A model generated the notes under the pieces. It was not told the origin of the DNA. It saw only the letters and a list, made by a program, of their open reading frames with translations, and did no database searches. From NCBI RefSeq assembly GCF_009914755.1, contig NC_060941.1: a DNA stretch of 64,000 bases; one strand, 5' to 3'. This DNA comes from the human T2T-CHM13v2.0 reference genome, Homo sapiens. This document shows positions 18,803 to 60,594 of this stretch, in pieces. Positions within the stretch are counted from its first letter, which is position 1, and every line of letters starts with the position of its first letter. The translations under genes were made by a program, and so were the position numbers.

Positions 18803-19075
18803 CTGTGTGAATGATGGAAAAAAAATTTTAAACAGTCTGTAGGGATCCTTAGTAATTAACAAGCAAATATTGTAAAAAGAAGGAAATTTCAACTTTACAT
18901 TGTTAAGCCCAAAAAAATGCTTAAGGTATGACATTTTGATCATGCCATTTTTCACGGCTGGTGTTAAGAGTAGTTTGTGAACAAATGCAAACGGAACCGT
19001 CTCTAAGATTTTTAATTTTTTAAAACAACTCTAGAGCTTAAAGCGCAAAAAAACCATCACAGGAAGTTAAAACTA

Positions 19076-19560
<485 letters not shown>

Positions 19561-23077: not shown

Positions 23078-24148
23078 CCTAATATGTACAATTTTGAATT
23101 TGCCCTAAGAATAAACAGGAGGTTTGCTATGTTGAAATTGAAAATGGGTGGAGTTCAGATGAGCATGTTTTATTATGCTTTTCACCTGTTGAAGAACATT
23201 GAGCAACCGTTAAGATCCATTTTTCTCAGCACTAATTCAGGTTGCATAGAATGTTTGCAAAGTTTAGAAAAAAAAGTTTCAGCTACAAAATTATAGTTAA
23301 AATAAGATTTTTCAAATTCATGTTTTAAACAGTTTTAATTGGAGCAACAAATAGCATAAAGTCTGGCAGGATCATGCTACAATAAGGTTCTTGTAGACAA
23401 CTGTAGGGAATCAAAAAGAAAAAGTTTCTAAAAATTTAACTAGCATCAATAGTTGCCACACATAAAACATTAAAGCCATAAAACCACAATTTAGGAGATT
23501 GTGTTTGTAGGAGATCTTTTAATTTATTTGGCAAATGAGAGTATATTGATATTTTGCCTAAGAAAGTGGAAGTAATGATTTTAGAATTTTCTAATTAATG
23601 ATGGCATTATTTTTAACATTAAAAAATCTGAAATCATAAAGTTATCCTGGATTATTTTGCACTTTTAAATTCATCATAGTTAAGGTTTCTGTGAAGACCA
23701 TAATAATGCAGAAAATCTGCATTATTTTCTTAGCATGAAATCCGAAGAACTAACTTGTAGTACTTTACACTAAGTTCTGATTGAGTAAAAAGGGAAAATT
23801 TGGATATGTTATGATTGCAAGTAAAAATTTGCTTGCAAAAATGTAAATCTATATTAGAGAATGATACTTGCACCAAATATTATGAACTAGACTGTGCACA
23901 TGTGTTCCCAAGCTAGGTTCAGTTTCTCAATAAAAACAACACATTTTCTTGGATATACTGTGTACAGAATTTGGTATAACAGTTTGTCTAGTGAAGTAAA
24001 TTGGGATTTTGGTACATTGTATAAGATTATATCTACCCATAGGCTATGACATTGCTGTTGTTTGGATGTATATATTCATACATGTTTTACAATTATGTAG
24101 TGCTGTTTGTGATACTGTGCTTTAAAAATTTCTAGAACAAGCTGTTGA

Positions 24149-24474
<326 letters not shown>

Positions 24475-26545
24475 GTGGTTATTGTTATTTCTAATTTATA
24501 GAAGAGGAAGTTGAAGTTGAGAGGTTGTGATTTTTTCCTGAAGATATGTAACAGGTGGTTGAACTGCAATTAGAAGCTTGGTCTTTTAACTCCTTGGTTC
24601 TTTTCCACTTTACCAATGTGTATATATATTATCTGCTCCAGTGGATTTGGTCTAATGGAGATGAATGACTCTAATTCTCACCGTAAACTTCTCCAAATGG
24701 GGAAAAAGAGCAAAACAAAAAGAACTTAGAATCATGAAAATATTCAAAGGGTAATGATTTGGCACACACTCTACCTTTAGTAATTGTTTTTTCAAATTAA
24801 GTTTATTGCTGCACATTTTGGTTTATGAAAACTACAGAAATAGTTTCTGTAGGGAAGGGAGTGTGGTTGGGAGCATTAATCAAATGTTGATTGTTAAAGT
24901 GGAGGTTACTACCCAGCAGATTGCAACTCTTCCAACTTGTTAGCACATGCAAATGGGGCAGTAGTTAAAAGAAAAACTGAAACCCAACCATGGGAATTGA
25001 TTCTTGATGAAGATAACCTACAGTTAAAGAAGGCTATGATAAATCAGGATAGGAAAAGAAAAAACTCCAATAACTTCAGAGAACATGTTGAAACCTTGAT
25101 ATTAATGAAATCTTTTTGGAAAGAAACATTTTAATTAAAAAGATATTTTGATTGATTTTACCTGTAATTAGCACAAGTTTTGGATCTTAGTATTACCAAT
25201 TTTGTTTTAGTATTAGCCTATAATTTCTCCCCCCAGTGGAAAATATAAAAATCCCAGTCTCCTTTCAGTTAATTAACAAGTGGTATGAAGAGAGCTCTGT
25301 TACAATCATATTAAACCAAAGAATATATGAAAGGGAATCTTTGCATAAAAGTACATAAGAACAAATACAGGTATGGAGGGCCTTCTAATACTATAACATT
25401 TAATTTAAGCTACCTTTACTGTTATTACCAAAGATTACTTATTAACTTGTATACTGTAGAAATTGATTTGTCTTTATTCACACTGTCATTTGTTGAAATC
25501 AGCCTTTGGCATGAGTAAAATTAAGAGATGCCACATAATAATTCTACAGCTAAATTGGATGAACATTTATGATTCTAGTCTTGGCACCATTTACACTTGA
25601 TTGCTATAATCCACTGTAACTGTATTTTCATTGTGCTCAATTTTTATTGTGTCTCTATGTAAAGTGCATTGGTAGGTATTTAAAATATAGAAAAATGAAT
25701 GAGATACACCTCCCGTCCTTATGGATCTTGCCAGTAGTTACAGTCTAATTGAGGAGACATGACATATACCATCAGTTTAAGCACTGTATGCTATATAAAT
25801 GGAAAATGATGGTGGGGCTTGGATGTGTAGGGGGAAGGAGTTAACATTTCCGGAATATCTCTATGATCTAGATGGTTTACTTTTCTTTAATCCTGCCCTA
25901 GGTTCTCTAAGATAGGTATTATTATCTCGTTTAATAGCTAAAAAACCTAAACCTTAAAAAGTTTTAGAAATTTGCCAGATTATGTATGTATTTGTTTATT
26001 TATATATCAGCAGTGTCTGTGTGATGACACACAGCCTGGTTTTGAATCAAGAGATACAGTTACAAAGGTGCTAGTTTTCATGACACCAGACTGGCATTCT
26101 TAAGACTAATGAGCAAGGGGTCATGTTGGAATGGGGCCAATTGACAAAGTTTCATGGTGCAGTTGAAATTTAAGCTGAGTCCTGTAAGGATGAGTAGGAC
26201 TTTTCATGTGTGCAACAGCAGAGAGAAGACTTCTGGGAAGTCAGGACTGTGAAAATGCCAAGCAAGTGGAGACACTGAGTGACCAGTTTGGCTGGAGTAG
26301 ATCATCCGTATATGTTAATTTATTCATACCTTCAGCAGGTTTTATTGAGCACCTGCAATATGGCCTGGGGAAGGCGTAGGTGACCAAGATACAGCTCCTA
26401 CCCTTCAAGGAGTTTACAATCTACTTGGAGAGGCAAACAAACATACCCACGAATCAGAGATTATAATATAGGGTAATCTGGGCTATATTTGAGCAATGTT
26501 CAGGGTTCCGAGGAATTACAGAGAGGTTGTCTAACAGTCTAGTGA

Positions 26546-26546
<1 letters not shown>

Positions 26547-26576
<30 letters not shown>
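26547..26576. repeat. (TG)n microsatellite
   Basis: Direct reading. Confidence 0.95.
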
Positions 26577-26577
<1 letters not shown>

Positions 26578-27812
26578 TGTGAGTGCACAATGAAAGAATA
26601 TTGAAGTAAAGTTCGGGATTGAGGATGAGTTTTGGTTTAAGACGTGAATTTGAGGTAATACCAGGATATTCATGTAAACATGTCTTTAAGCAATTATGGG
26701 ACTGCTGTTAAGGAGAGAGATTCAGAATAGCAGATTTTGGGGGTAGTTAGGATCCCTAAGGGAAGGAATTTAGAGAGAAATGTACAGAAGGTCTAATTCT
26801 GAACTTTTGGAGTCACTTTAGGGGCTGGGAAGAAGAAGTAGAGCTAGAGAATAATCCTGAAAAGAAGGACATCTAGGACCAGGGAAAGGGGGAAAGAGGA
26901 TCAGTGAAGCCAAGGGAGAAGAGAACGTGGGTGAGGTGATCATCCGAGAGGTCAATGAAAAGATGGATTGAGGAAAGTAATTTGGAACCATTGGCATCCT
27001 TCCAGAGGACAATTTTAATTGAGTAGTGGTGGGGCAATTCATGATGCATACCCAATATTGGAATTGATGACTTTGCTTATGGTATTTTATTTTCATGTTG
27101 TCCAGTTTATCAATTTCTTCTTTAATTGCTTCTGAACTTTGAGTCGTGGTTAAGACGGATATAGTTGCTATTCGCATGGGGTTAATTTGGCCGGAGCTCT
27201 AGAAGCATGTTGTGGATTCAAGTTTGTTATCAGTTTGACTTGTCTCACTGTTGGGATTTGGATCCTTTTTATTTCTTCCTTATTTTGCTTCAAGTAAAAT
27301 CCGCTTTTGAAGTTTCTAGCTGAAAATTCTATTTGCAAGTTTCTTTTTCTGATTGAGATATAATACATATAATTGAGATATAATGCATAGTTTAGGTAGT
27401 TGCAGAAGGACAAATCTGGTAATGCAGGTTATATCTCAAGATGGCAAGGTTGATCTAAATATTTAGAATTTTCTGTTGTTTATCACAAAGTTTAAGAGTC
27501 AGGCATTTTCTTTTTACTGTTCTGTGACTGTGCAAATTGCTTAATATACTTTTGTGATTACTACCCACAGAGTCAAAACAAAGTGGAAAATTGTATCATT
27601 ATTTGATAGATTTGGTACCCTCTTCTCAGATAGCTAATTGTTGGACAACTAAGATATCAATTGATAAAGTTCATGTCTTGTCATTGGTAAACTTCTAAAA
27701 TTCAGGGATTTAAAATCTACAAACACTCCTATATCAATTTTTCTGAAACTTCTGGGACTGTACTGTGATGGAAGCCACAAAAATATGGAAACTGCTTGAA
27801 GGCTTTTGAGTT

Positions 27813-28035
27813 TTGAGGGTAGTGTAGCAGGGTAAGTGGGTGGGCTCTGGGGTCAGACTGCCGGGGTTACAATCCAGGCTCCCCCATTTACTGTGAGGTT
27901 TCATCTCAATGTCCTCCTCTCTAAAGTAGGGATTATAATTTTTCATACTCTGTGGAGTTGTAGCAGGAGTCAAATGAGTTAATAAATATAAAGCGTTTAG
28001 AACAATGATTTGCATGCATAGAATAAGCACTTAAT
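27813..28035 (+). mobile_element. MIR
   Basis: ggctctggggtcagactgccggggttacaatccaggctcccccatttact...aaatgagttaataaatataaagcgtttagaaca. Confidence 0.75.
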
Positions 28036-29619
28036 GAATATATTTTTGTTGCTATTACTGTTTTGTGATCTCTGTTTCTCATAGGTTAACCCACTGTCCA
28101 ACCCACAGGATGCCTTCAAAATAGGAATGAATGAAAGGATAGGGTGAGAAGTTAGAAAATGGCTTGTGAGGGAGGAGAAAATGGCTGGAGAGGAAAGTAG
28201 GGTGGGGAAAAGGTGTTCAGCTTGATAACTTTTGTGATAAACCATGCCATCTGTTTTTCTTTGAGTGACACTTCCTTTCACTTTAAACTTCATTTCTTTA
28301 TCTCCTACATCCACCAAGGCACTAATTTTGTCACCTTCTCTTTGTCATAGCTAATGTATTCGTTTCTTTCTGTGTAGCCCCACTGTAACTGCCCTAATCT
28401 GAGCTTTCACCACTTTTCTCGAAGATTACTTCACCAGCTTCTGAAGTGGTTTTCTTGACTCAGCACTGTCAATTAAGATCTGTTCACTGCGGCAGGGTTG
28501 ATGTTCTTGAAACAGTACTGTCATCACTTCATCAACATACTCGGACCTCTTGTGGATGGATTAAGTCTTCTCCATAACCTTGCCCGACTCTGTCTGTCCA
28601 ACCTCATGCTCCCTGCGGTGAGTCAGGGTGGGGAGTGGAAGGAGTGCTACATTCTCTTCATAAAGTAATTATGTGGCCCTGGGCAAGATACTCAGCTTTC
28701 CGTGTCTCAGTTTACTACCCTATAAAATATGGATAGTAATGTTAAATATTAAAATATGGATAATAATCCATGATTCAGTGAAAAAATGTGTGTTAGCATC
28801 TCCTTTAAGAATCCTTTAATTACTTAATCCTTTAAGCAGGCCTTTCTACTCTTGGCTAAGATACTATGCTTTGTTCCATTTTAAGGCTTGTGTTTGTTGC
28901 TCTTGGCTTAGAATGCCCATCTTCTACTTTGCTGTTTATTCAAGTTATTCTACCTCAACTCCAGACTCTGACTTAAATGCCATCTCCTTCATGAGACTTC
29001 CCACCGTTAGTCTGTAGTTCACGGCTGTCTCTTTCTTCTCATTTCCTATGTTGAACAACTTGGTGTTTTATAATTTGTTATAATATTCTGGCCTCTTTAT
29101 TAGTGTTTCCAATGCAATACGACATTTAAGTTCCTTTAGAGAAGGGAGGGTGCCTCTGTTCTTGCTGCACCCAGTACTCATTGTTCTCTGAATGTTTTCG
29201 TATTGCCTCAGTGCCTTTCCCCACTTTCTTTGCCTTTATTTTTTTCTCCAAACTCTTGGCCTGTATGTTTTGGCAATAGTGCAAGTTAAAAATTTAAATG
29301 AAGGCTGGTTGAAGACAACTAATTTAATTTTGCTTTAAAGGAAATTATGATACTTTTTGATGTAAGAATATGTAAGAATGATAAGAAAACCAAGATTCTG
29401 CATAGGAATTTTAAAATACCTTAAAGTATATAAAGATATATTCCTTAGAATGGAAATACACTATATATATTAAGAAAACATTTTGGCCCTCACTTTTTCC
29501 TCTTCATTAAAGGTCACTTTTTTTTTGTCTTGGATCTGTTGAGATTATCTTGATACTAGTAACCTGCTAAAATATATCTGTAGTTTTATTCTAAAATTTG
29601 AATTTTTTTCATACATCAC

Positions 29620-31105
29620 ATCAAATTAAAAAGCTTCTGCACAGCAAAGGAAACAATCAACAAAGTAAAGAGACAGCCCACGGAATGAGAGAAAATATTT
29701 GCAAACTATCCATCTGACAGAGGGTTAATAACCAGAATATATAAGGAGCTCAAACAACTCAATAGGAAAGAAAATCTAATAATCTGATAAAAAAAATGGG
29801 CAAAAGATCTGAATAGACATACAAATCTCAAAAGACATACAGGCTAGGCATGGTGGCTCACACCTCTAATCCCAGCACTTAGGGAGACTGGGATGGGAGG
29901 ACTACTTGAGCCTAGGAATTCAAGACCAGCCTGGGTAACGTAGGGAGACCCCATCTCTACAAAAAATAAAAATAAATTAGCTGGGTGTGATGGCATGTGT
30001 CTGTAGTCCCAGCTACTTGGGAGGCTGAGGTGAGCCATGTTCCTGCCACTGCACTCCAGCCTGGGCAACAGAGTGACCTCAAAAAAAAAAAATAAGAAAA
30101 CATATAATGGCAAACAGGTATGTAAAAAGGGGCTCAACATCATTGATCATCAGAGAAATGACTCAAAACTGTGCAATGAGAATGTGATTCTCACTGCAGT
30201 TGAATGAATAATGTAAATTATTACAGTCACAGTAATTTGTTGTACAACTCACCCCGCTTAAAATGGCTTTTATCCAAAAGAGAGGCAATAATGAATGCTA
30301 GTGAGGATGTGGAGAAAAGGGAACCCCCTCGTTCACTGTCCTTGGGAATGTAAATTAGTACAGCCACTATGGAGAACAGTATGGAGGTTCCTCAAAAAGC
30401 TAATAATAGAACTACTGTATGATCCAGCAGTCCCACTGCTAGATATATACCCAAAATCATGGAAATCAGTATATCAGTGAGATATCTGCACCCTCATTTT
30501 TTTTTTGCAATTGTGTTCACAATAGCCAAGATGTGGAAACAACCTAAGTGTACATCAACAGACAGGTTGATAAAGAAAACGTGGTACATATGCTCAATGG
30601 AGTACTATTCAGCCATAAAAAAGAATGAGATCCTGTTATTGCAACAACTTGACTGGACCTGGAGGACATTATGTTAAGTGAGATAAACCAGGCATAGAAA
30701 GATAAACTTCTCATGTTCTCATTTGTGGGAGCTAAAAATGAGAACAATTGAACTCATAGAGATAGAGAGTAGAAAAATGGTTACCAGAGGCTGGGAAGGG
30801 TAGTGTGGGGTGAGGGGGCTGGGAAGTGGGGATGGTTAATGGGTACAAAAATATAATTAGATAGAACAAATATAATCTAGTATTTGATAGCACAACAGGG
30901 TGATTATAGTCACAATAATTTATTGTACATTTTAAATTAAAAAAATATTATTGGAATATTTGTAACACAAAGAAATGATAAATGCTTGAGGTAATGGGTA
31001 CCACGTTTACCTGGGTGTGATTATTATGCATTGTTGCCTGTATTGAAATATCTCTTGTTCCTTCTGAATAATACAGTTACCATGGACCCATAAAAAGTTA
31101 AAAAT
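29620..31105 (+). mobile_element. L1M(A) 3' portion, interrupted by an Alu
   Basis: aaaagcttctgcacagcaaaggaaacaatcaac, gaatgtaaattagtacagccactatgga, 3' UTR words. Confidence 0.9.
29842..30098 (+). mobile_element. Alu (J-like) with internal deletion
   Basis: Alu consensus plus A tail, inside the L1. Confidence 0.9.
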
Positions 31106-31904
31106 TTTGAATGTTTTTTATATTAGGAGAATTGACAATTCTAGTTGGGTTTCTGGCTAGGTAGCCTATGAGTATGTTGTAATTTAAGGATTAAATATAA
31201 TATAACTTAGCTTTTAAATTTCATTAGTATGTCATGGGATTTCTTTTCAGGTAAATTAATTTCATTTTGTAAAAGACAATTGCTCACTATGAGTTAGCGC
31301 ATTAGTAGGATAATTAATTAACATATAACATAAAATAGAAATGTAATATCCCTTTTAGTTTTCATAAAAAATAGTGAAGCCGAAAGTACCAAACAATTCT
31401 CTACAGACCCATTTTAAAATATTGAAACTGAACATTGTCCAAAATTCAGTGGCTGTTTTCTCCCCCTCATAAATCTAAGAAAATTCCTTTAGGTCCAGCT
31501 GTGGTTGCTTGTCCAATTGGTCATTTCAAGGATGGCTGGATATGAGAGAAAATAACATTATAATTGGGTATAACTTCATAATTTTTACTTAGAGAGTCTG
31601 GACAGATCTAAATAGAGTAGAGAAAGTTTTGGATTAGAAATGATACATACAGAGGTTAAGGTTTACAGTGAAAGCATTTAATCCCCCACTCTAGTGATTT
31701 TAAGTCAGTATATGTAACATGCTTAAATTTAAAGGAAAAAGTCTTAAGGAATCAAATTAATTTCCTAATTTTAAAGGTTTTTAAAAAATACTTGACCTTA
31801 TGGACTCAGACAACTAGTCAATTTCATAATAAATGGACCCTCTGTCTTTGAATCACTTTTTTTTTTTGGTAAGGGGGTTGTAAGAATGGTAGAGGAATAG
31901 ATTT

Positions 31905-31986
31905 AAATAATTATTTAAATGTAACACACAATAGTAGCAGAGAAAATAATTATTTAAATGTAACACACAATAGTAACAGAGAAAAT
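31905..31986. repeat. 39-bp tandem duplication
   Basis: aaataattatttaaatgtaacacacaatagta(g/a)cagaga twice, starting at 31905 and 31944, one mismatch. Confidence 0.9.
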
Positions 31987-32213
31987 GTACCACAACCATT
32001 CTGTGGCTTCTTTCACAAGGCTGACGACTGATAATCTCCAAAGAACTTTTGATTTCTTGTATTAAACCCATTAAACAAATATGCAAATAACATTTGCAAA
32101 GTCAGTCCTAAGATAGAGTTTATAGAGCTTGATGAGACTTTTTTATGTTCCAAGACCTGTTCTAAATTTTACTTGCATTTTTGTCTCATCAAATCCTGTT
32201 GGCAACTTTATGA

Positions 32214-32523
<310 letters not shown>

Positions 32524-32538
32524 AGAAATTTTATTTTA

Positions 32539-32903
<365 letters not shown>

Positions 32904-33435
32904 AAATTAGTTAAAATTTAGCATGCCCAAAACGATTCAATAAAGGGACTTTGGTGGGATTTGAACACAGACCTATCTTCAGAGCTTTTTAAAAACACAA
33001 TGATTAACTTTTTTCTTTTTTTAAACACACTGTTGCTGGCTTAAACTGAGTAACTCCTAAAACTCTTTTGAAATGAGCTAAAATTGTATTTTTCAGTTAT
33101 GTGACTTGGAAAATTAACAAGAACATAAGGGATTTTAGTTTCTTTTTCAGACTAGACAAGCCTTCCTTATCATACTTCTGTGATGAAAAAAATAGACTAA
33201 TTTGAAAAGAAAAAGAACTAATGAGGCAAGATATCCTGCCCTGGAAGAGATCAGACTTGTAGGCCTTGTCTGTTCCCAGGAGAGACTCTGCACTAACTTC
33301 CTGAGGGTCCGTCTGGCATGGGTTAATGAAGGTTCCTAACTCTTTGGCAGACCAGTCATTAAAATAACAAATCACAGCAATTAGCCACCATGCATAATTG
33401 AAGCATTAATCCTTTTATAATGCTGGCTTTTTCAG

Positions 33436-33520
33436 ATGGAGCTAACACCCATTATGGAGATTAACCACTTTTCATCAGGTTTTTAACTTAAGTCGTGAGG
33501 AATACAACGGTGAACACAAG
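33436..33520 (+). ncRNA. KRT10-AS1: Probable internal exon of KRT10-AS1/TMEM99 (85 nt)
   Basis: Acceptor ctggctttttcag|ATGGAG and donor cacaag|gtgtgt, upstream of the last exon. Assignment partly from recalled gene structure. Confidence 0.55.
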
Positions 33521-33934
33521 GTGTGTATGTGAATTAATTTAGTAGTAAACTATGACATGGAGGGGTTCTGTTGCTTTGAAAGTTTCCAACTTATATACAT
33601 TCAAAAGCTATTAAACTTTTTGGTGTCTCTCCAAATATTTTCCATATTGATAATTTTGGTTGAAATGTAGAGCTAGTTAGAATTTTCTAGTCTAATGCTT
33701 AGATATAAATGAGTGCATATTTGCAGAGCTATAAGATGTTGCATTATTTTTTTTTCTTGGCATCTGGAATATAAATGCTAAATTTGGTCTAGTTAGAATT
33801 TCCTGCTTCCCTCCCTCCCCTGCTTCCTTCCTTCCATCTCAAAACTCTCCAAGGATGAAGACCCCACAAGCTATATTGGGGTAACATATTGTAACAGTAG
33901 TTACTTTCAGTTTCTGTCAAACTAGATTAAAAAG

Positions 33935-34345
33935 AAGACAAGTATTACATGTTCTCACTCATATGTGGGAGCTAAAAAAATTGATCTCATCGAGATAAAG
34001 AGGAGTATAATGGTTACCAGAGAGGCTAGGAGGATAGTAGGGAGGTGAGGGAGAGAAAGTAGGGGATAAAGAGGGTTGGTTGATGGGTACAAACTTACAA
34101 TTAGAAGGAATAAGATCTAGTGTTCAGTAGCACAATAGAGTGACTATAGTTGACAGAAATTCACTATATATTTTAAATAACTAGAGTGAAATTAGAATGT
34201 TCCCAACACAAAGAAATAAGTGTTTGAGATGATGAATATCCCCATTATCCTGATTTGATCATTACACATTGTATGCTTGTATCAAAATATCACATGTACC
34301 CCATATATATGTATAACTACTGTGTATCCATAAAATTTTTAAAAA
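33935..34345 (+). mobile_element. L1MA 3' end
   Basis: catgttctcactcatatgtgggagctaaaaaa...atcacatgtaccccatatatatgtataactac plus A-rich end. Confidence 0.88.
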
Positions 34346-34675
34346 ATTTAAAAGAGGAAAGGAATGGAAAATAAAAGTAAAAAGATGATTCATCAAAAAT
34401 TACATTGTAGAAGAAGAGTGCAGAATGGCATAAACTAGTACCACATAGAACTTAATTTGTAATTGTGAAGAAACCATGTAAGTATATTTACTCCTGGTAT
34501 TGTGTCTTTCTCTCTTATCCTAATTTACTGTTCCTCTATAGTTTAAAATTAAAGAATTGCCTTTAAATTTTACAGGGCAAACTAATTATACTGTGGAGAC
34601 ACAAAATGTTTTGAGACATCTGTGACCAGACATGTCACGTGTGAATATACCATTGGATTTCAAAGCAACACATAA

Positions 34676-35235
34676 TTTTTTTTTTTTTTCCTTTTACAAC
34701 AGATTCATTTTATTTTCATCACCATGGGACGTATCCTGTTGTTGAGTTCTCTGGGTCAGACCTCTGAAGACTTCTCAGATGGATCCTAGTCTCTGGGCTT
34801 GCCCTGAAATTACTCGCTGCTCAGGGAGAGAGTTGAAATGGTTGGCATCCTCCCACTCTGTTGCTCCGGCTGTGTCCCCTCGCTCTGTTGTTCCAGCTAT
34901 GTGCCCTCTGTTGCTCCAACTGCAGCTCATTCTGTTAGAGTTCCTCATTCAGCTGGTCACTGTGGCCAGAGGGTGTTGGCCTGCTCCCTTCCTCAAGTAT
35001 TCTTAAAGCCATGGATTTTTGTGGAGCATTTTTCTTCCTGGCTCTCCCTTGAGTTATTTTCCTTTCTTCGCTATCTTGGGACTCTTCTTTGTGCTTGCGG
35101 TCATCGGTTGAGAGAAGGACTTCTTCTTCCTTGTCTCCTTGGTGTTGGCTCGTGGTTGCTCTTCAACAACTGGACTGGAGGCTCTTGGTTTTCTCTTCAT
35201 CTTCAACAAGTCAGTCTCTCTCAAGGGTCTCACGT
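34676..35235 (-). pseudogene. Processed VCX/VCY-like retrocopy
   Basis: - strand ATG at 35200: MKRKPRASSPVVEEQPRANTKETRKKKSFSQPMTASTKKSPKIAKKGK, frameshift, GRARKKNAPQKSMALRILEEGSRPTPSGHSDQLNEEL*QNEL...SEGTQ. Colinear with recalled VCX/VCY. AATAAA at 34709-34714, then poly(A) at 34676-34689. No intron. Confidence 0.75.
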
Positions 35236-35830
35236 TGCAGCATTCTTACCAGAGGCCATTGGGCCTGGAGTTCCAGTTCCAGTGTCTGGAGAGTCCACCT
35301 CAGCTCAGCAATCTCATGCCGGTTGGCAATTGTCAGCAGAAGCCGATGCCTGCCCATCAGTTCTTTACTCTGAGGTGTTAGAGTGGAATAAAAATATAAA
35401 TACTTATACTAGTTTTCATGACTTCTGCTTAATATTGGGTATTTTTTTGTTTTGTTTTGTTTTGGCGGTGATAGGCTTACCTTACATTAAACCAGGCCTT
35501 AGCCTTTCTGTGGCTTTGTTATGGCAAAGCCTCATATTACTCTCTAGTCTGGTTCAGCAGGACAGTCAGGTCCACACCTGGGGCTGTTTGTTTTCTACGT
35601 TTACCTCAACATAAGGTACCTTATCATTGTCAGCCTTCATCTCCTGATCCAAAATAAAATAAAATGCCACAGGTTACTTGATTTTGCATCTGGAATATGA
35701 TTATTTAAAGAAATTAAAAATTTAAAACTGAAAATGTAGAGTTTAGAAATCTTTTTTAAGGTTTCAAAAAAATTTCTAGGAGACAACAAAATAGTGTTAC
35801 TAGATTTAGCAAATAAAATACAGAATGCCA
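34703..35830 (+). ncRNA. KRT10-AS1: KRT10-AS1 (TMEM99) last exon; 3' end uncertain
   Basis: Strong acceptor T14-CCTTTTACAACAG|ATTC at 34702. Contains the TMEM99 ORF. AATAAA at ~35653 and ~35812. Confidence 0.7.
34838..35614 (+). CDS. TMEM99: TMEM99 ORF (258 aa, doubtful protein; locus now regarded as lncRNA KRT10-AS1)
   Basis: Single-exon ORF matching the recalled TMEM99 sequence (MVGILPLCCSGCVPSLCCSS...). It lies entirely antisense to pseudogene sequence, so coding status is questionable. Confidence 0.6.
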   Translation: MVGILPLCCSGCVPSLCCSSYVPSVAPTAAHSVRVPHSAGHCGQRVLACSLPQVFLKPWIFVEHFSSWLSLELFSFLRYLGTLLCACGHRLREGLLLPCLLGVGSWLLFNNWTGGSWFSLHLQQVSLSQGSHVAAFLPEAIGPGVPVPVSGESTSAQQSHAGWQLSAEADACPSVLYSEVLEWNKNINTYTSFHDFCLILGIFLFCFVLAVIGLPYIKPGLSLSVALLWQSLILLSSLVQQDSQVHTWGCLFSTFTST

Positions 35831-35978
35831 ATTAAATTTGAATTTCAAATGAACATTGAATACTTTTTTTGGTATAACTATATTCCATGCAATATTTGGG
35901 ACATATCTGTTATATTATTCATTGTTTACCTGAAATTATAATTTAAACTGAGAGTTCTGTATTTTATCTGGCAACCTT
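35793..35978. mobile_element. MER53-like palindromic hAT MITE
   Basis: aaaatacagaatgccaattaaatttgaatttcaaatgaac pairs with gtttacctgaaattataatttaaactgagagttctgtattttatctggcaacc. Central ccatgcaatatttgggacata. Confidence 0.8.
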
Positions 35979-36457
35979 ATTATGAAAATATTTAGGATCA
36001 ATATAAAGGAATAATATTTTTAATTTTTACAAACTATTTTAATATAAGTAATTTATTTGATTTTCATTGTCATCCTGAGAGTTAAGTTTTGCCTTACAGT
36101 CTATGTTACTTTACCTGTGTTTTATGAAAAGACTGTCTCTTATAATGATAGCCACCACCACCATATCTTGACAAGTATTGACATACTGAAACTTTAAATT
36201 CATTTTGTGTAGTTCCCGCCTCTTCATGATTGTTTCTGAGGTAATTCAGCTTCTCCGTCTGGCTTTCCATTTTCAACTCTAGGTTAGTCTTGTTCAAAGT
36301 CAACTCATCTAAGACACTTCGCAGGCCCTTGCTATCAGCCTCAACACAGTGATAAAGGACAACTTTACTCTGGCATCTGAACAGAGCCCAATTGGAAGAA
36401 TCAATACAGCTTAGATGGAGGTCTCCTCATCCAGTGGTAATAAAACATCCCACATAG

Positions 36458-36925
<468 letters not shown>

Positions 36926-37607
36926 TGAGTTAATGTGCAAAAGTGCTTAGCACAGCATCAGTATTTAGTAAATGGTAGGAATAACATTATTAAAGCCATG
37001 AAAGAGTGAAAATCTCCCCTCTGCTCTTTTGACTAGGAAAGGAAGCAAGCTCCTTTTCACGTACAGTGCAATGCACCTTTGTTTTACAAGGACTGTGTCT
37101 CCCTAGTTAAAAAAAAATTAAAGTACAGTATGGGGGACCTCCTGCAGTTCTATAAAAACCAAGTCTCTGACCTACGGATTGGAGAGTCATACACCATACA
37201 TGAGATTTCAAATCGCTAGCCTGGGAATTTTCACATTGCTAACCTATGACCACTATTGTAATTTAAACATAAAAGAGATTGTTTTATGTTGAGATGTTTA
37301 ATAATGTGAAATAATGATATTGTAAATTTTGTAGTAACTGTTTAAAGTGGTGAATTGGGGAGGTTTTTTTTTTTTTTTTTTTTTTCAGTTCTTTACATGG
37401 TTTCTGACTTACTTGAGCTTGAAGTCATCCACAGTGAGCCTGGCATTGTGGATCTAATGCGGAATGTTGGCATTTTCCAAAGTAACATTCGTTACCTTCA
37501 AGGGAGGAAAAGGAACCATATAATTTAACAAAATATGTTGGGTGCCATTAGGTCCAGATTATATACTTCATGGATTTCAATAATTATAAGTTTGTCAGTC
37601 ATATTTG

Positions 37608-37886
37608 TGCTAGTCATGGCGGCTCATGCTTGTAGTCCCAGCACTTTGAGAAGCTGAGGCTGGAGGATCACCTGAGTCCAGGAGTTCAAGATCAGCTTGA
37701 ACAACATAGTGAGACCCCATCTCTACAGAAAAAAATTTAGCTGGGAATGGTGGCACATGTCTGTAGTCCCTACTTGGGAGGCTGACATGGGAGGATTGCT
37801 CAAGCCTGGGAGGGTGAGGCTGCTATGATCGTGCCACTACACACACACCAGCCAGGGCAACAGAGCAAGACCCTGTCTCAAAAAAG
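37608..37886 (+). mobile_element. Alu (J-like) in pseudogene intron 1
   Basis: Diverged Alu. TSD agt(c/t)atatttgt. Confidence 0.9.
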
Positions 37887-38507
37887 TTATATTTGTATAA
37901 ATATATATCAGATAAACAGTAAATTTAAATTTTTCTCGGACTATTACAGAACTTTTCAGCTAAATATATTTTTTAGAGCTTCTGAAATACAGGATAAATG
38001 TTTCTCTTTCAAATGAATGAGCCATTTCATATTAATTTTTATGCACGTTAGACACTTTTCTCGACATTAGATGCATTAATTAATCAGATACAATATATGT
38101 TTGCCAGGAGAAATGTAAGTTGTCAAGGTAGTAGGCCTGGCATTTGTTTAAATTCTGTGTGGTTTTTGTCTCATTACTTGAAAGAAGGCCACCACCATCA
38201 GAGTCACCAGAATTTCACAGGCCCCTATTTAGTCCAGCACTCATGCTACTCCACCCTGTGCCAGGACCCAACCTACCCTCAACACCATAAAAGCCACCAG
38301 AAGGCCCACTACCACGGCCCTCTGCTCTCTTGAGAGCCCCCTACAATGACATAGGTTCCCCTGAGCCTCAACAGACTCAGAGCCACTTTCAGTGCTGCTG
38401 TGCTGCCACAACCCAGAGGAACAAGCCACTGTGTGGAGGTGTAGCAGAGATCTAAGGTTAAAGTATAGCCCCAAAGTCGGTGCATTATGGGGACCATTAT
38501 GGAGCCT

Positions 38508-41114: not shown

Positions 41115-42042
41115 AGTAAATAGTCCTTTTCTTAAATTTGCCTTGACTTATCCTAATTTGAGCGTGCCAGTTGTTTCCTGTGTGGACCCTACTGTATGAT
41201 AGGAATTTGTATTGAGTCTTTACTCTCAAGGAGGTTGATAGGAAAATGAATAATTGCAACACCATGCAATAAGGGTTAATACTTGCTTATCAAAGTGTAA
41301 GATCCTTGAGGGTAGAGACCATACATTATTCACATTTCTTTCTTGAGACTTAGCATAGTGCCAGGTACAGAGCAGGTGCCTACCAATGTGGAAAGGTAGA
41401 GGTACGTATACGGGGTGGGGAAAAATGGAGGATGGAGTTGAGAAGCTGTTCCAGGAAGGCCCAAGTGGCTTCATGGTTTAATTATGTTGGTCAGAAACAG
41501 ACTGGTTGCACTAAACAAGAAGAGAATTTACTAGAAGGATATCATTGGCTTCTAGAATCAATGGAAGGTAGGAATATAGGAATTGGAGGACAAGGAGAAG
41601 CTGGGGTGCTTTGGAGGGCTAGTTTACACAAACCACAGCAAAAGTCAAACAATGGATATGATCCTCAGTGTATGTTCCCACACATTGGTCTCTTGTTCAA
41701 ATTTCAGTGTCCCGACTGGCTAAGTCTGAGTGGTGGGAGGGGCTGCTATCTCCTCCTACTGCACACACTAGTACTGCACGCTCCCTTTCAGGGGCCTCTT
41801 CTGAGGAGACAGCAGCTACTTTCTACTTCATATGGTTTTTATTACTTAGTTGAAATGCTAACATGTTCGTGACCTTGGGGAAATGATTTAACACAGATAT
41901 GTGTGTATTTTAATAGTTTAGGTGAAAAGAACTGATTTCTGAGACAACTTTTGATAATCTTTTTTTCTTTCAGGATGAAGTAATGTTAATTTTATACCCT
42001 ATGTATTGCATCTTTTGCTGATACCAAACCTTTAATGGTTTA

Positions 42043-46282: not shown

Positions 46283-46999
<717 letters not shown>

Positions 47000-59149: not shown

Positions 59150-59658
59150 TCAGGGAGGAGAGGCTGGGGAGGGATCAGATGAGGTTACCTGGGGAGGGAG
59201 TATAGAGAAAAGACAAGAGGATTGAGCCAACATTCAGTCACAGAAGTCTGAGAAAAAGCTGCCTACAGAGTGATGGCTCTGGGAGCTTTGTGGTAAAAAA
59301 TTTCCAAGAGAAGGGAATGCTGAGAAACTATGGTACTAGCTAATAAATGACCCTTGCATTTATACTTGTGCAAAATCCTTTCCCCTTTGAGTCTCACACC
59401 ATTCTTATGTAGTTGTAAGGAAAACAGATGTTATTTAAAGCAGTAACTATTTGCAGACACTTTTGAGCACCAGGGAAGTAGAATCCTTTATTTATTACTT
59501 GGGGGCTGTGGACCTTGTTCAGAGGCCTTGATAAAATCCTTTTGAGTCTGAAAGGTAAAGGTTACCCTAGGATGTGTGCTGGAAGGTGAAGGCTAGACAA
59601 AGAGAGCTGAGCGTATAATAAAGTGAGATGAGTGGAGGATCTGAAACCATTAAAAATA

Positions 59659-59976
59659 TTTTTTTCTTTTCTTTTTTTTGAGACAGGGTCTTACTCTGTT
59701 GCCCAGGCTGGAGTGCAGTGGCACGATAACAGCTCACTGCATTCTTGACCTTCCCAGGCTCAGGTAATCCTTCCACCTCAGCCTCCCAAGTAGCTGGGAC
59801 TACAGGTGTGCACCCCCACACCCGACTAATTTTTTTTTTATTTTTTAAATTTTTTTTGTAGAGACAGAGTTTTACCATGTTGTCCAGGCTGGTCTTGAAT
59901 TCCTGGGCCCAAGCAATCTGCCCATATTGGCCTCCCAAAGTGCTGGGATTACAGACGTGAGCCACTGCATCTGGCC
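59659..59976 (-). mobile_element. Alu (J-like)
   Basis: Reverse Alu (gagacagggtcttactctg; acagctcactgc). Confidence 0.93.
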
Positions 59977-60594
59977 ATATAAATGATATTAAAAGGAAAA
60001 GCTGCATACTGAAGCAAATCAGCTTAAGTTGGCTGACTAGCCATTGGCCTTTGGACTCAGCTCTGGAATTCCTCTTGTCTAACACAACTCCTCCCTCTCC
60101 CTTCTGCTTCTTTGACACTCCTTATTCACCATGTCTCCTTGTTTCTTCATCCCACTTTGGTTTCATACAGTAAATAATAATAAGACACAAATATTGAGTA
60201 CTTTCTAGGTGCCAATAGTTTCCAGGTTCCTAGTGCTTTAGGTACACGACCTCATTTCATCTTCACAAAACCCGTGCCATGAAGCAGGTGCAGTCATTGC
60301 TATCATTTCCACTTTAAGAAACTGAGGAACACAGAGGTTAAATTACTTGTTATTAAGTAGCAGAGCCGGAAATTGAACCCAGTGTGATGTTAGAGGCCAG
60401 GCTCTTAATCATTGAATTTTGCCCATTTTCCTTTTAGGGTTTTGAATTTGGCAACCCATGTTGAACCACCATCTACTCAGGCTGAGACTTTGGCTGCCTT
60501 TTTCCCTAATGCAGAACATGATTTTTGTTACTGACTTGTGGGTCTGACCTGCCCCAGTGGGGACCCCACCCTGGGCCTCACTGCTGCCAGCTAG

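What the first reader, a model, noticed from the sequence alone, without database searches (positions are those of the whole stretch)
34676..35643. The TMEM99 ORF and its exon are built from the antisense strands of two nested dead genes
Seen: the 258-codon + strand ORF (34838-35614) runs antisense across a VCX/Y-like retrocopy (34838-35235), keratin-pseudogene exon 5 (35250-35369), its intron 4 and most of its exon 4 (35481-35614). Both sense-strand genes carry stops and frameshifts, while the antisense frame is open. The retrocopy's poly(A) tail, read as T14 at 34676-34689, is the polypyrimidine tract of the exon's acceptor (AG at 34701-34702). Inference: the exon could not exist before the retro-insertion, so this is a reconstructable de novo exon/ORF birth. 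The 'transmembrane' character is explained by antisense reading of Lys/Glu/Arg codons (AAG, GAA give CTT, TTC) and of a T-rich intron. The probable promoter is also borrowed: the CpG island in KRT10 exon 7.
Basis: partly seen in the sequence, partly recalled or inferred. Interest (0 to 1): 0.88.

Follow-up and report, generated by a model that had tools for sequence, protein, structure and literature searches.

The report
lncRNA exon built from dead genes
The last exon of the human non-coding RNA KRT10-AS1 (formerly TMEM99) runs backwards across a dead VCX-like gene copy and a dead keratin gene, and its long reading frame looks like a by-product, not a protein gene.

Summary
The 258-codon + strand ORF (34838-35614) lies antisense to a frameshifted, intronless VCX/Y-family retrocopy (34676-35233) and to exons 5 and 4 of an unannotated KRT10-like pseudogene. 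Comparison with 16 relatives in the same genome shows that T14 (34676-34689) is the retrocopy's poly(A) tail. The AG acceptor just downstream is the reverse complement of the family's conserved 3'UTR end, so the exon boundary at 34703 cannot predate the insertion.

The "gene birth" reading is only half supported: the exon's origin is reconstructable, but a functional protein is not indicated.
- RefSeq lists the locus as a lncRNA.
- The frame is reported broken in chimpanzee, bonobo and gorilla.
- Two Old World monkey-type protein models run through other frames at both ends.
- Human-monkey amino-acid identity (83%) matches a neutral simulation.
- Four upstream ATGs precede the start.
- One paper reports no polysome association and no product from tagged constructs.

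Antisense strands of all 17 family members are A-poor and often carry long open frames, so the openness comes from composition. Antisense-retrocopy exon acquisition was described as a class in 2008. This is a well-resolved new example of a known kind.

The parts
34676..35233 (-). Processed, full-length, disabled retrocopy of a VCX/Y-related X-linked gene, including its A14 tail. The ATG is at 35200; a frameshift and TAA lie near 35056; a second TAA lies at 34935-34937.
   Evidence: It is contiguous where 12 of 16 relatives carry a ~190-230 nt intron. Similarity starts ~30 nt past the TATA box of the X genes and ends at the cleavage site after the conserved AATAAA. Pfam gives two frames; indels against the chr8 copy are.
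34676..34689 (.). T14 on the + strand, which is the A14 poly(A) tail of the retrocopy, used as the polypyrimidine tract of the acceptor.
   Evidence: Homology to all relatives ends here, about 20 nt after AATAAA.
34690..34702 (+). The rest of the 3' splice site, ending in AG at 34701-34702. It is the reverse complement of the conserved last bases of the family's 3'UTR.
   Evidence: Counting from 34676 to 34700, 22 of 25 bases are pyrimidines (read).
34703..36595 (+). Terminal exon 3 of KRT10-AS1 (NR_160888.1). It runs antisense over the retrocopy, keratin pseudo-exons 5, 4 and 3, and their introns.
   Evidence: Hub annotation; canonical splice sites and ATTAAA at 36572, 23 nt before the end.
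34838..35614 (+). The 258-codon 'TMEM99' ORF.
   Evidence: No Pfam family.
34724..34789 (+). Upstream ORF with a strong start context (21 codons). It is one of 4 ATGs ahead of the main ATG in the spliced RNA; another opens a 75-codon overlapping ORF at 34779.
35234..35249 (-). A 16-nt stub of keratin intron 5 (GT donor at 35249-35248) between exon 5 and the retrocopy.
35250..35369 (-). Keratin pseudogene exon 5 (40 codons, 6 nt shorter than KRT10 exon 5, no stop).
35370..35479 (-). Keratin pseudogene intron 4. It is T-rich on the + strand and is the source of the strongest hydrophobic segment (ORF aa 196-214).
   Evidence: (5, 4 and 0 stops by frame).
35480..35643 (-). Keratin pseudogene exon 4 (two stops, one frameshift). 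The ORF ends inside it.
36220..36381 (-). Keratin pseudogene exon 3.
   Evidence: tblastn E 7e-13; Pfam Filament E 2.9e-9; the best other match in the genome is KRT10 exon 3 at 59%.
37412..37498 (-). Keratin pseudogene exon 2 (one stop).
38113..38193 (-). Keratin pseudogene, end of exon 1 (start of the rod domain).
   Evidence: E 0.001.
33894..33920 (-). Possible remnant of keratin exon 6 (22 of 27 nt match KRT10 exon 6). Not significant.
   Evidence: blastn E 0.2.
19060..19560 (.). CpG island (69% G+C, CpG observed/expected 1.20, 70 CpG) coinciding with the Gly-rich KRT10 exon 7. The KRT10-AS1 start at 19465 lies at its edge.
   Evidence: hub table.
19465..19528 (+). KRT10-AS1 exon 1.
   Evidence: Hub annotation; GT donor.
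33436..33520 (+). KRT10-AS1 exon 2. It is unique in the genome and holds two of the upstream ATGs.

Best explanation
The terminal exon of the lncRNA KRT10-AS1 is a patchwork read antisense to two dead genes.

The two dead genes. A KRT10-like type I keratin duplicate decayed in place; its exons 1-5 are still recognisable. A full-length mRNA of an X-linked, TATA-driven VCX/Y-related gene was reverse-transcribed into this relic 16 nt past its exon 5 donor. Old World monkey and gibbon protein models already contain retrocopy-derived sequence, so I infer the insertion predates the split of apes and Old World monkeys.

The splice site. Read backwards, the retrocopy's 3' end supplies a ready-made 3' splice site. 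The A14 tail becomes a T14 polypyrimidine tract. A CTG in the conserved 3'UTR end becomes the CAG acceptor. Transcription starting at the CpG-rich, Gly-coding KRT10 exon 7 splices into it and ends at an ATTAAA about 1.9 kb downstream.

The ORF. The 258-codon frame exists because the sense strands are purine- and A-rich, so the antisense strand is A-poor and has few stop codons in any frame, and the 110-nt intron 4 happens to be open in this one frame. The frame is hydrophobic because it reads T-rich intron and codon-aligned antisense of Lys, Glu and Arg codons. It is most likely a neutrally drifting, untranslated frame; any function of the locus belongs to the RNA.

Shown here: the anatomy, the origin of the splice site, and the compositional basis of the open frame. 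Inferred: the order of events, promoter use, and lack of translation, which rests on one paper plus comparative models.
For: Retrocopy.
- The chr17 copy aligns to the VCX/VCY loci in two blocks joined at window ~35085. There, 6 of 6 VCX/VCY loci and 6 of 8 distal-Xq relatives carry a ~190-230 nt intron; the other 2 were undetermined.
- The 3' similarity ends about 20 nt after the conserved AATAAA and is replaced by A14. The 5' similarity starts ~30 nt after the X genes' TATA box.

Acceptor.
- The CTG that gives the AG is shared by chr8 and most Xq members. VCX/Y have GTG at that place.

Keratin relic.
-.

The open frame is compositional.
- 17 of 17 family members have 11-17% A on the antisense strand.
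- Antisense open runs reach 178-222 codons in the VCX copies, 175-193 in the chr8 copy and 141 in the chr17 copy.
- The segment 34808-35369 has only 4 stops across all three + frames.

No sign of a conserved protein.
- Florio 2018 (passages) reports a frameshift in chimpanzee and bonobo, a stop in gorilla, and an intact frame in human and orangutan.
- The gorilla, gibbon, macaque and snub-nosed monkey models (4 of the 7 database hits) carry 20-28 gapped columns within the central 152 residues.
- The gelada model and one unnamed 215-aa model map to other human frames at both ends.
- Human-monkey identity is 126 of 152 (82.9%), against a simulated neutral 86.5% (range 81-92%) at an assumed 6.5% nucleotide divergence.
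- Four upstream ATGs precede the main ATG.
- Polysome profiling and FLAG constructs were negative (passages of PMC12412623).
- RefSeq lists the locus as lncRNA (hub table).
Against: - The 268-codon run is the longest in the window and was rare in Markov simulations (3 of 2000 local, 0 of 200 window-wide).
- The central 75 residues (aa 126-200) differ from the macaque model at only about 4 positions, by my reading. That is fewer than the roughly 10 a neutral rate would give, so weak local constraint is not excluded.
- The main ATG has A at -3 and G at +4.
- The translation tests come from one lung-cancer study of which I saw only passages, not the supplementary figures.
- No target-site duplication was found (best 7-mer; 20% of 500 shuffles score as well).
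- Exons 6-8 of the keratin relic were not recovered, so the insertion may have come with a deletion, or may sit at the truncated end of the relic rather than inside an intact gene.
- The primate proteins are automatic gene models, not DNA. I could not examine any other primate genome.
Confidence: 0.8

Rival explanations
1. TMEM99 is a real, young protein-coding gene. The 258-aa frame is translated in some tissue (for example fetal neocortical progenitors) into a small membrane protein that arose de novo in great apes and was secondarily lost in chimpanzee, bonobo and gorilla.
For: - A long ATG-initiated ORF with a good start context.
- Four hydrophobic 19-residue windows with KD of 1.6 or more.
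- The frame is reported intact in human and orangutan, with expression in fetal neocortex progenitor data sets (passages of PMC5898914).
- The open run is statistically unusual.
- Low divergence in the central 75 residues.
Against: - The frame is broken in three of five great apes.
- Monkey models use other frames.
- Overall divergence is neutral.
- Four upstream ATGs precede the start.
- There is no polysome association and no FLAG product.
- There is no Pfam family.
- RefSeq demoted the gene to lncRNA (hub table).
- The hydrophobic segments are explained by composition.
Confidence: 0.07
2. The anatomy is as described, but the exon is transcriptional noise. The splice into 34703 is a weak by-product of antisense transcription from the KRT10 CpG island, and neither the RNA nor the ORF has any function.
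For: - The sequence evolves at about the neutral rate.
- The exon is a mosaic of dead sequence.
- Most papers that mention the gene only list it: 43 papers for TMEM99 and 5 for KRT10-AS1, seen as listings.
Against: - A curated BestRefSeq transcript has three canonical splice junctions and a proper poly(A) signal (hub table).
- The gelada model begins with two residues that match the end of exon 2 joined to exon 3. This suggests the same junction in an Old World monkey.
- One paper reports RNA-level phenotypes and IGF2BP2 binding (title and abstract, PMC12412623).
Confidence: 0.1
3. The T-run and acceptor are not retrocopy-derived. The T14 belongs to pre-existing keratin intron 5 or to another repeat, and the exon boundary could predate the VCX-like insertion.
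For: No target-site duplication marks the insertion limits.
Against: - Family homology runs uninterrupted through the AG and the 13 nt before the tail, and stops exactly at the tail, about 20 nt after the conserved AATAAA, in the alignment of all 17 copies.
- NCBI's masking lists no repeat there (hub table).
Confidence: 0.03

Closest known systems
Antisense retrocopy exon acquisition (Type Ib / Type III events of Baertsch et al. 2008, BMC Genomics 9:466, PMC2584115; passages read)
   Same: A processed mRNA copy inserted in reverse orientation contributes an exon. Its splice-site polypyrimidine tract derives from an antisense purine tract. The ORF mixes antisense retrocopy with adjacent intronic or intergenic DNA.
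   Different: Here the tract is the poly(A) tail itself and the AG lies in the 3'UTR end, so the whole acceptor came ready-made. The rest of the exon is a second dead gene, a keratin relic.
Alu exonization from antisense Alu elements (Lev-Maor/Sorek/Ast work, recalled; Zarnack 2013 seen as listing and abstract start only)
   Same: The antisense poly(A) or A-rich linker of a retroelement becomes the U-tract of a new 3' splice site.
   Different: The donor element here is a single-copy mRNA retrocopy, not a SINE. The exon is a 1.9 kb terminal exon, not a short cassette exon.
De novo or 'proto-gene' ORFs in primate lncRNAs; TMEM99 itself is listed as a Hominidae-specific gene in Florio et al. 2018 (eLife 7:e32332; passages)
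   Same: A lineage-restricted ORF in a spliced, polyadenylated transcript, intact in some species and broken in their sisters.
   Different: This ORF's raw material can be traced segment by segment. The evidence points to no translation and no constraint, so it fits a proto-gene at best.
VCX/VCY family (Pfam PF15231) and its genomic relatives
   Same: It shares the N-terminal basic region, the intron position of the source genes, the 3'UTR with AATAAA, and an acidic repeat region.
   Different: The chr17 copy is not inside the VCX/Y clade. It branches alone between (chr8 copy + VCX/Y) and (distal-Xq group + chr12 copy). Its p-distance is 0.30-0.31 to VCX/Y, against 0.21 to chr8 and 0.22-0.25 to the Xq group.

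Membership tests
Processed (L1-type) retrocopy | Loss of the parent gene's intron | tested here: met
   chr17 is contiguous at window ~35085, where 12 of 16 relatives have a ~190-230 nt intron. Two relatives were undetermined and two (chr8, chr12) are also contiguous.
Processed (L1-type) retrocopy | Poly(A) tail at the mRNA cleavage site, downstream of AATAAA | tested here: met
   A14 begins about 20 nt after the family-conserved AATAAA. The X/Y genes continue with unrelated genomic DNA at that point.
Processed (L1-type) retrocopy | Flanking target-site duplication | tested here: not met
   The best direct match between the flanks is a 7-mer; 20% of 500 shuffles score as high. It may have decayed or been replaced by a target deletion (inference).
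Processed (L1-type) retrocopy | Location away from the parent locus | tested here: met
   The intron-bearing relatives lie only on C23 and C24 (X and Y). This copy is on C17.
VCX/VCY family (PF15231) | Pfam score over the gathering cut-off (27 bits) | tested here: not met
   18.9 and 17.0 bits for the two frame pieces. The genome-wide Pfam search did not list the copy. Homology rests on DNA alignment and collinearity.
VCX/VCY family (PF15231) | Placement inside the VCX/VCY clade | tested here: not met
   In the tree of 17 copies (458 columns), VCX/Y plus chr8 form one side (support 100/99), the Xq group plus chr12 form another (100/100), and chr17 lies in neither.
Unprocessed type I keratin pseudogene | Collinear exons separated by introns at the keratin exon boundaries | tested here: met
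   Exons 1-5 lie in order on the minus strand. The exon 4 and 5 limits match KRT10 codons 290-343 and 344-385, with AG and GT present.
Unprocessed type I keratin pseudogene | Intermediate-filament rod similarity | tested here: met
   Pfam Filament E 2.9e-9 on exon 3 (37.4 bits for one exon; whole-protein cut-off 40). The best genome matches are type I keratin exon 3s, with KRT10 first at 59%.
Unprocessed type I keratin pseudogene | Disabling mutations | tested here: met
   Two stops and a frameshift in exon 4; a stop in exon 2.
Unprocessed type I keratin pseudogene | Complete eight-exon gene body | tested here: not met
   No exon 6-8 match in 23501-35300 apart from a 27-nt remnant at E 0.2.
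De novo protein-coding gene | Transcribed ORF absent as an ORF in outgroups | tested here: inconclusive
   The human ORF is present. The literature reports it broken in chimpanzee, bonobo and gorilla. Monkey models show other frames. No outgroup DNA was available to me.
De novo protein-coding gene | Evidence of translation | not testable with these tools
   Only a paper's statement is available: no polysome association and no FLAG product (passages).
De novo protein-coding gene | Purifying selection on the frame | tested here: not met
   126 of 152 residues are identical to the monkey models, against a simulated neutral 86.5% (81-92%). The 6.5% nucleotide divergence used is recalled.
Antisense retroelement exonization | Polypyrimidine tract and AG lie within the inverted element and are used in a spliced transcript | tested here: met
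   Searches give the origin. Use rests on RefSeq NR_160888.1 (hub table) and on the gelada model's junction residues.
CpG-island promoter | At least 200 bp, G+C over 50%, CpG observed/expected over 0.6, at the transcript start | tested here: met
   19060-19560 has 69% G+C, o/e 1.20 and 70 CpG; the TSS is at 19465 (hub table). CCG/GCC repeats are listed in the TMEM99 core promoter. Promoter activity was not tested.

The most novel reading that the evidence does not exclude
The 258-residue frame is translated in a restricted human tissue, for example fetal cortical progenitors. That would give a hominid-restricted membrane protein in which every segment (signal-like N-terminus, hydrophobic helices, start and stop) traces to the antisense strand of a dated retrocopy, a keratin exon or a keratin intron. 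It would be a fully reconstructable de novo protein birth, with independent losses in chimpanzee, bonobo and gorilla.
Probability: 0.06. Interest if true: 0.75.

Novelty: new member of a known kind. Interest (0 to 1): 0.38.

Why it matters
This is an unusually clean worked example of how a spliced exon and a long ORF can appear from dead sequence. The whole acceptor site is traceable to a retrocopy's 3' end, and the open, hydrophobic frame is traceable to base composition. It also explains why a gene once named as a transmembrane protein is better treated as non-coding.

Three by-products may be useful:
- A KRT10-like pseudogene relic between KRT10 and KRT12 that is missing from the annotation table and from the catalogue text I saw.
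- Three autosomal fossil copies (chr8, chr12, chr17) that time-stamp the history of the fast-evolving VCX/Y gene family.
- A group of intron-sharing relatives on distal Xq.

Tried and rejected
- Target-site duplication: none above chance.
- Keratin exons 6-8: sensitive tblastn and blastn with KRT10 and KRT12 found only a 27-nt, non-significant remnant. 'Nested' stays unproven.
- Pfam on the keratin exon 5, exon 4 and exon 1 pieces and on the 258-aa ORF gave no hits.
- A literature search for a chr17 VCX retrocopy or for a VCX link to the distal-Xq relatives turned up nothing on point in the listings. The CSAG1 preprint passages held nothing on homology.
- Naming the Xq relatives: a protein search with one Xq exon returned only a 41-aa unnamed fragment, and Pfam found a sub-threshold VCX_VCY match in 1 of the 9 Xq ORFs tested. 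My recollection that some of them are CSAG-type genes is therefore unverified.
- Shorter homologues of the ORF: none.
- My recollection of a mouse Tmem99 gene found no support in the two searches that bear on it. One preprint lists TMEM99 among genes absent from mouse. I dropped it.
- Exon 2 as a repeat: it is unique in the genome.
Full report
**1. What is in the sequence**

The + strand ORF runs 34838-35614 (258 codons from ATG); stop to stop it is 34808-35614, 268 codons. T14 occupies 34676-34689, followed by 13 nt ending in AG at 34701-34702, and the annotated KRT10-AS1 exon 3 starts at 34703 (hub table). All three exons have canonical junctions. The exon ends 23 nt after an ATTAAA at 36572.

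**2. The keratin relic**

I translated KRT10 from the window's own coding exons and searched it against 23501-61000. This gave five collinear minus-strand matches, plus one noise hit at E 7.7:

| Exon | Window coordinates | E-value | Note |
|---|---|---|---|
| 1 (end) | 38193-38113 | 0.001 | |
| 2 | 37498-37412 | 1e-4 | one stop |
| 3 | 36381-36220 | 7e-13 | |
| 4 | 35584-35480 | 2e-7 | two stops |
| 5 | 35321-35235 | 0.005 | |

- Reading the frames shows a further frameshift in exon 4, and places exon 4 at 35480/1-35643 and exon 5 at 35250-35369. Splice signals are present.
- Exon 3 hits Pfam Filament at E 2.9e-9. Its best match elsewhere in the genome is KRT10 exon 3 at 59%, with other type I keratins at 43-56% (30 matches listed).
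- The relic is not in the hub's RefSeq table. The text I saw of the 2006 nomenclature (five type I pseudogenes) and of a 2017 catalogue (four) names none that fits. I could not see their figures.
- Exons 6-8 were not found. Only a 27-nt stretch at 33920-33894 resembles exon 6 (22 of 27 nt, E 0.2).

**3. The retrocopy**

Evidence that the sequence is VCX/Y-related:
- Pfam VCX_VCY matched two of the ten pieces tested, in different frames and collinear (profile 1-42 and 35-86), both under the cut-off.
- The window's genome turned out to be searchable. PF15231 finds four X loci, two Y loci and a contiguous copy on chr8.
- A DNA search with the chr17 copy adds a chr12 copy and nine places on distal Xq. 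Eight of those loci were analysed further.

Evidence that it is processed:
- chr17 aligns to the X/Y genes in two blocks that abut at window ~35085.
- All six VCX/VCY loci and six of the eight Xq loci have a ~190-230 nt intron at that point. Two Xq loci lacked a usable first block. chr8 and chr12 are contiguous like chr17.

Evidence on its two ends:
- At the 3' end all copies share the AATAAA and the next ~20 nt. The genes then continue with genomic DNA, whereas chr17 has A14.
- At the 5' end, similarity among the three processed copies begins ~30 nt after the TATA box of the X genes, at window ~35233.

The retrocopy therefore spans 35233 to 34676, full length. It leaves 16 nt of keratin intron 5 after the exon 5 donor. 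It is disabled: relative to chr8 it has a net 4-nt loss with a TAA near 35056, and a second TAA at 34935-34937. No target-site duplication is detectable.

**4. Consequence for the exon**

The T-tract is the tail. The AG is the complement of a CTG in the conserved 3'UTR end. That CTG is present in chr8 and in most Xq members, while VCX/Y have GTG. The acceptor was therefore probably complete on arrival. The exon boundary, the first 136 nt of the exon and the ORF's start codon cannot predate the insertion.

**5. Which gene was copied, and when**

- p-distances from chr17 are 0.21 to chr8, 0.22-0.25 to the Xq group and chr12, and 0.30-0.31 to VCX/Y.
- In an ML tree of 17 copies (458 columns), chr8 joins VCX/Y (support 100/99), chr12 falls within the Xq group (100/100), and chr17 stands alone between them with an end branch of 0.092. 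The VCX/Y stem is long (0.24).
- That long stem is in line with the reported rapid evolution of VCY (passages).
- So 'VCX/Y-like' is apt, but the copy is not a VCX or VCY copy proper.
- Protein models from gorilla, gibbon, macaque, snub-nosed monkey and gelada contain peptides encoded by the antisense of the retrocopy's N-terminal region. The insertion therefore predates the ape and Old World monkey split.
- The end branch gives a loose upper bound that I read, from recalled neutral rates, as early-primate at most.

**6. Why the frame is open and hydrophobic**

Open frame:
- The retrocopy's + strand is 15% A, against 30% for the window.
- The segment 34808-35369 holds only four stops in all three frames together. 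Intron 4 has 5, 4 and 0 stops by frame.
- As a natural control, all 17 family members have A-poor antisense strands, with long open runs: 178-222 codons in VCX, 175-193 in chr8, 141 in chr17 and 26-97 in the others.

Hydropathy:
- The strongest segment (aa 196-214, KD 3.06) is intron 4.
- The next (aa 221-239, KD 1.93) is codon-aligned antisense of exon 4.
- The N-terminus (KD 1.70) lies in the acidic-repeat part of the retrocopy.
- The codon-aligned antisense of the basic VCX N-terminus turns 12 of 12 Lys codons into Leu or Phe, but reaches only KD 1.42-1.44.

**7. Is it a gene?**

- RefSeq lists a lncRNA (hub table).
- Florio et al. report the frame intact in human and orangutan, frameshifted in chimpanzee and bonobo, and stopped in gorilla (passages).
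- Four of the seven database homologues have 20-28 gapped columns within the central 152 residues, at the places where frames break.
- The two ungapped monkey-type models run in other human frames at both ends.
- Over those 152 residues, identity is 126 of 152 (82.9%). Random substitution at 6.5% (a recalled divergence) gives 86.5%, range 81-92%.
- The spliced RNA has four ATGs before the main one. One has a strong context, and one opens a 75-codon overlapping ORF.
- A 2025 paper states that the RNA is absent from polysomes and that FLAG-tagged ORF constructs gave no product (passages; supplementary figures not seen).
- Against this reading: the ORF is a statistical outlier, and the middle 75 residues are better conserved than the rest.

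**8. Promoter**

The region 19060-19560 is a CpG island by the usual criteria and coincides with the Gly-rich KRT10 exon 7. The TSS at 19465 lies at its edge. A published list shows the TMEM99 core promoter filled with CCG/GCC triplets. Promoter activity itself was not tested.

**9. What is known**

- Antisense retrocopy exon acquisition, with polypyrimidine tracts from antisense purine runs and ORFs drawn from antisense retrocopy plus flanking DNA, was described as a class in 2008 (passages). Alu exonization works the same way (recalled).
- Searches for TMEM99 (43 papers, listing plus passages of five) and KRT10-AS1 (5 papers, listing only) showed no account of this locus's origin.

**Verdict.** The exon-birth mechanism is well supported. 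The protein-birth claim is unlikely. This is a new, well-resolved member of a known kind.

Noticed in passing
window 35250-38193 (-): An unprocessed, KRT10-like type I keratin pseudogene relic (exons 1-5) lies between KRT10 and KRT12. It is absent from the hub's RefSeq table and from the pseudogene lists in the text I saw of the 2006 nomenclature and a 2017 catalogue.
   Followed up: partly
L017-L027 (G000 C23:147.3-151.5 Mb): About nine distal-Xq loci are related to VCX/Y. Where both exons were found, they share the intron position, a TATA box and the 3'UTR. Several of them read the shared exons in other frames. From memory, some of these peptides resemble CSAG-family proteins; this is unverified. 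Two of the loci (147.94 and 148.00 Mb) are identical inverted copies.
   Followed up: partly
L014 (G000 C8:94354392-94355048) and L016 (C12:273368-273824): Two further intronless family copies. chr8 (Pfam 90.5 bits, one TAG, tail decayed to a GA-rich run) is sister to VCX/Y. chr12 sits within the Xq group. Together with chr17 they are dated snapshots of a fast-evolving family.
   Followed up: partly
window 36480-36640: The KRT10-AS1 poly(A) signal (ATTAAA at 36572) lies in sequence that I recall as MIR-like. It is followed by a TG repeat and the T-run of an antisense Alu. Repeat identities were not tested.
   Followed up: no
P0006, P0007 against window 34696-35487: Old World monkey-type protein models keep a long open frame over the same exon but in different frames at both ends. 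The gelada model starts with two residues that match the end of exon 2 spliced to exon 3, directly after an in-frame TGA. This suggests the same junction in a monkey.
   Followed up: partly
window 46283-46999 (-), 59570-60121 (-), 41354-41869 (+): Other long stop-free runs (239, 184 and 172 codons) lie outside annotated coding exons. The first overlaps the start of lncRNA LOC105371777.
   Followed up: no
window 33894-33920 (-): A 27-nt stretch matches KRT10 exon 6 at 22 of 27 nt, collinear with the relic. If real, the retrocopy sits inside a ~750-nt intron 5 rather than at a truncated end.
   Followed up: partly
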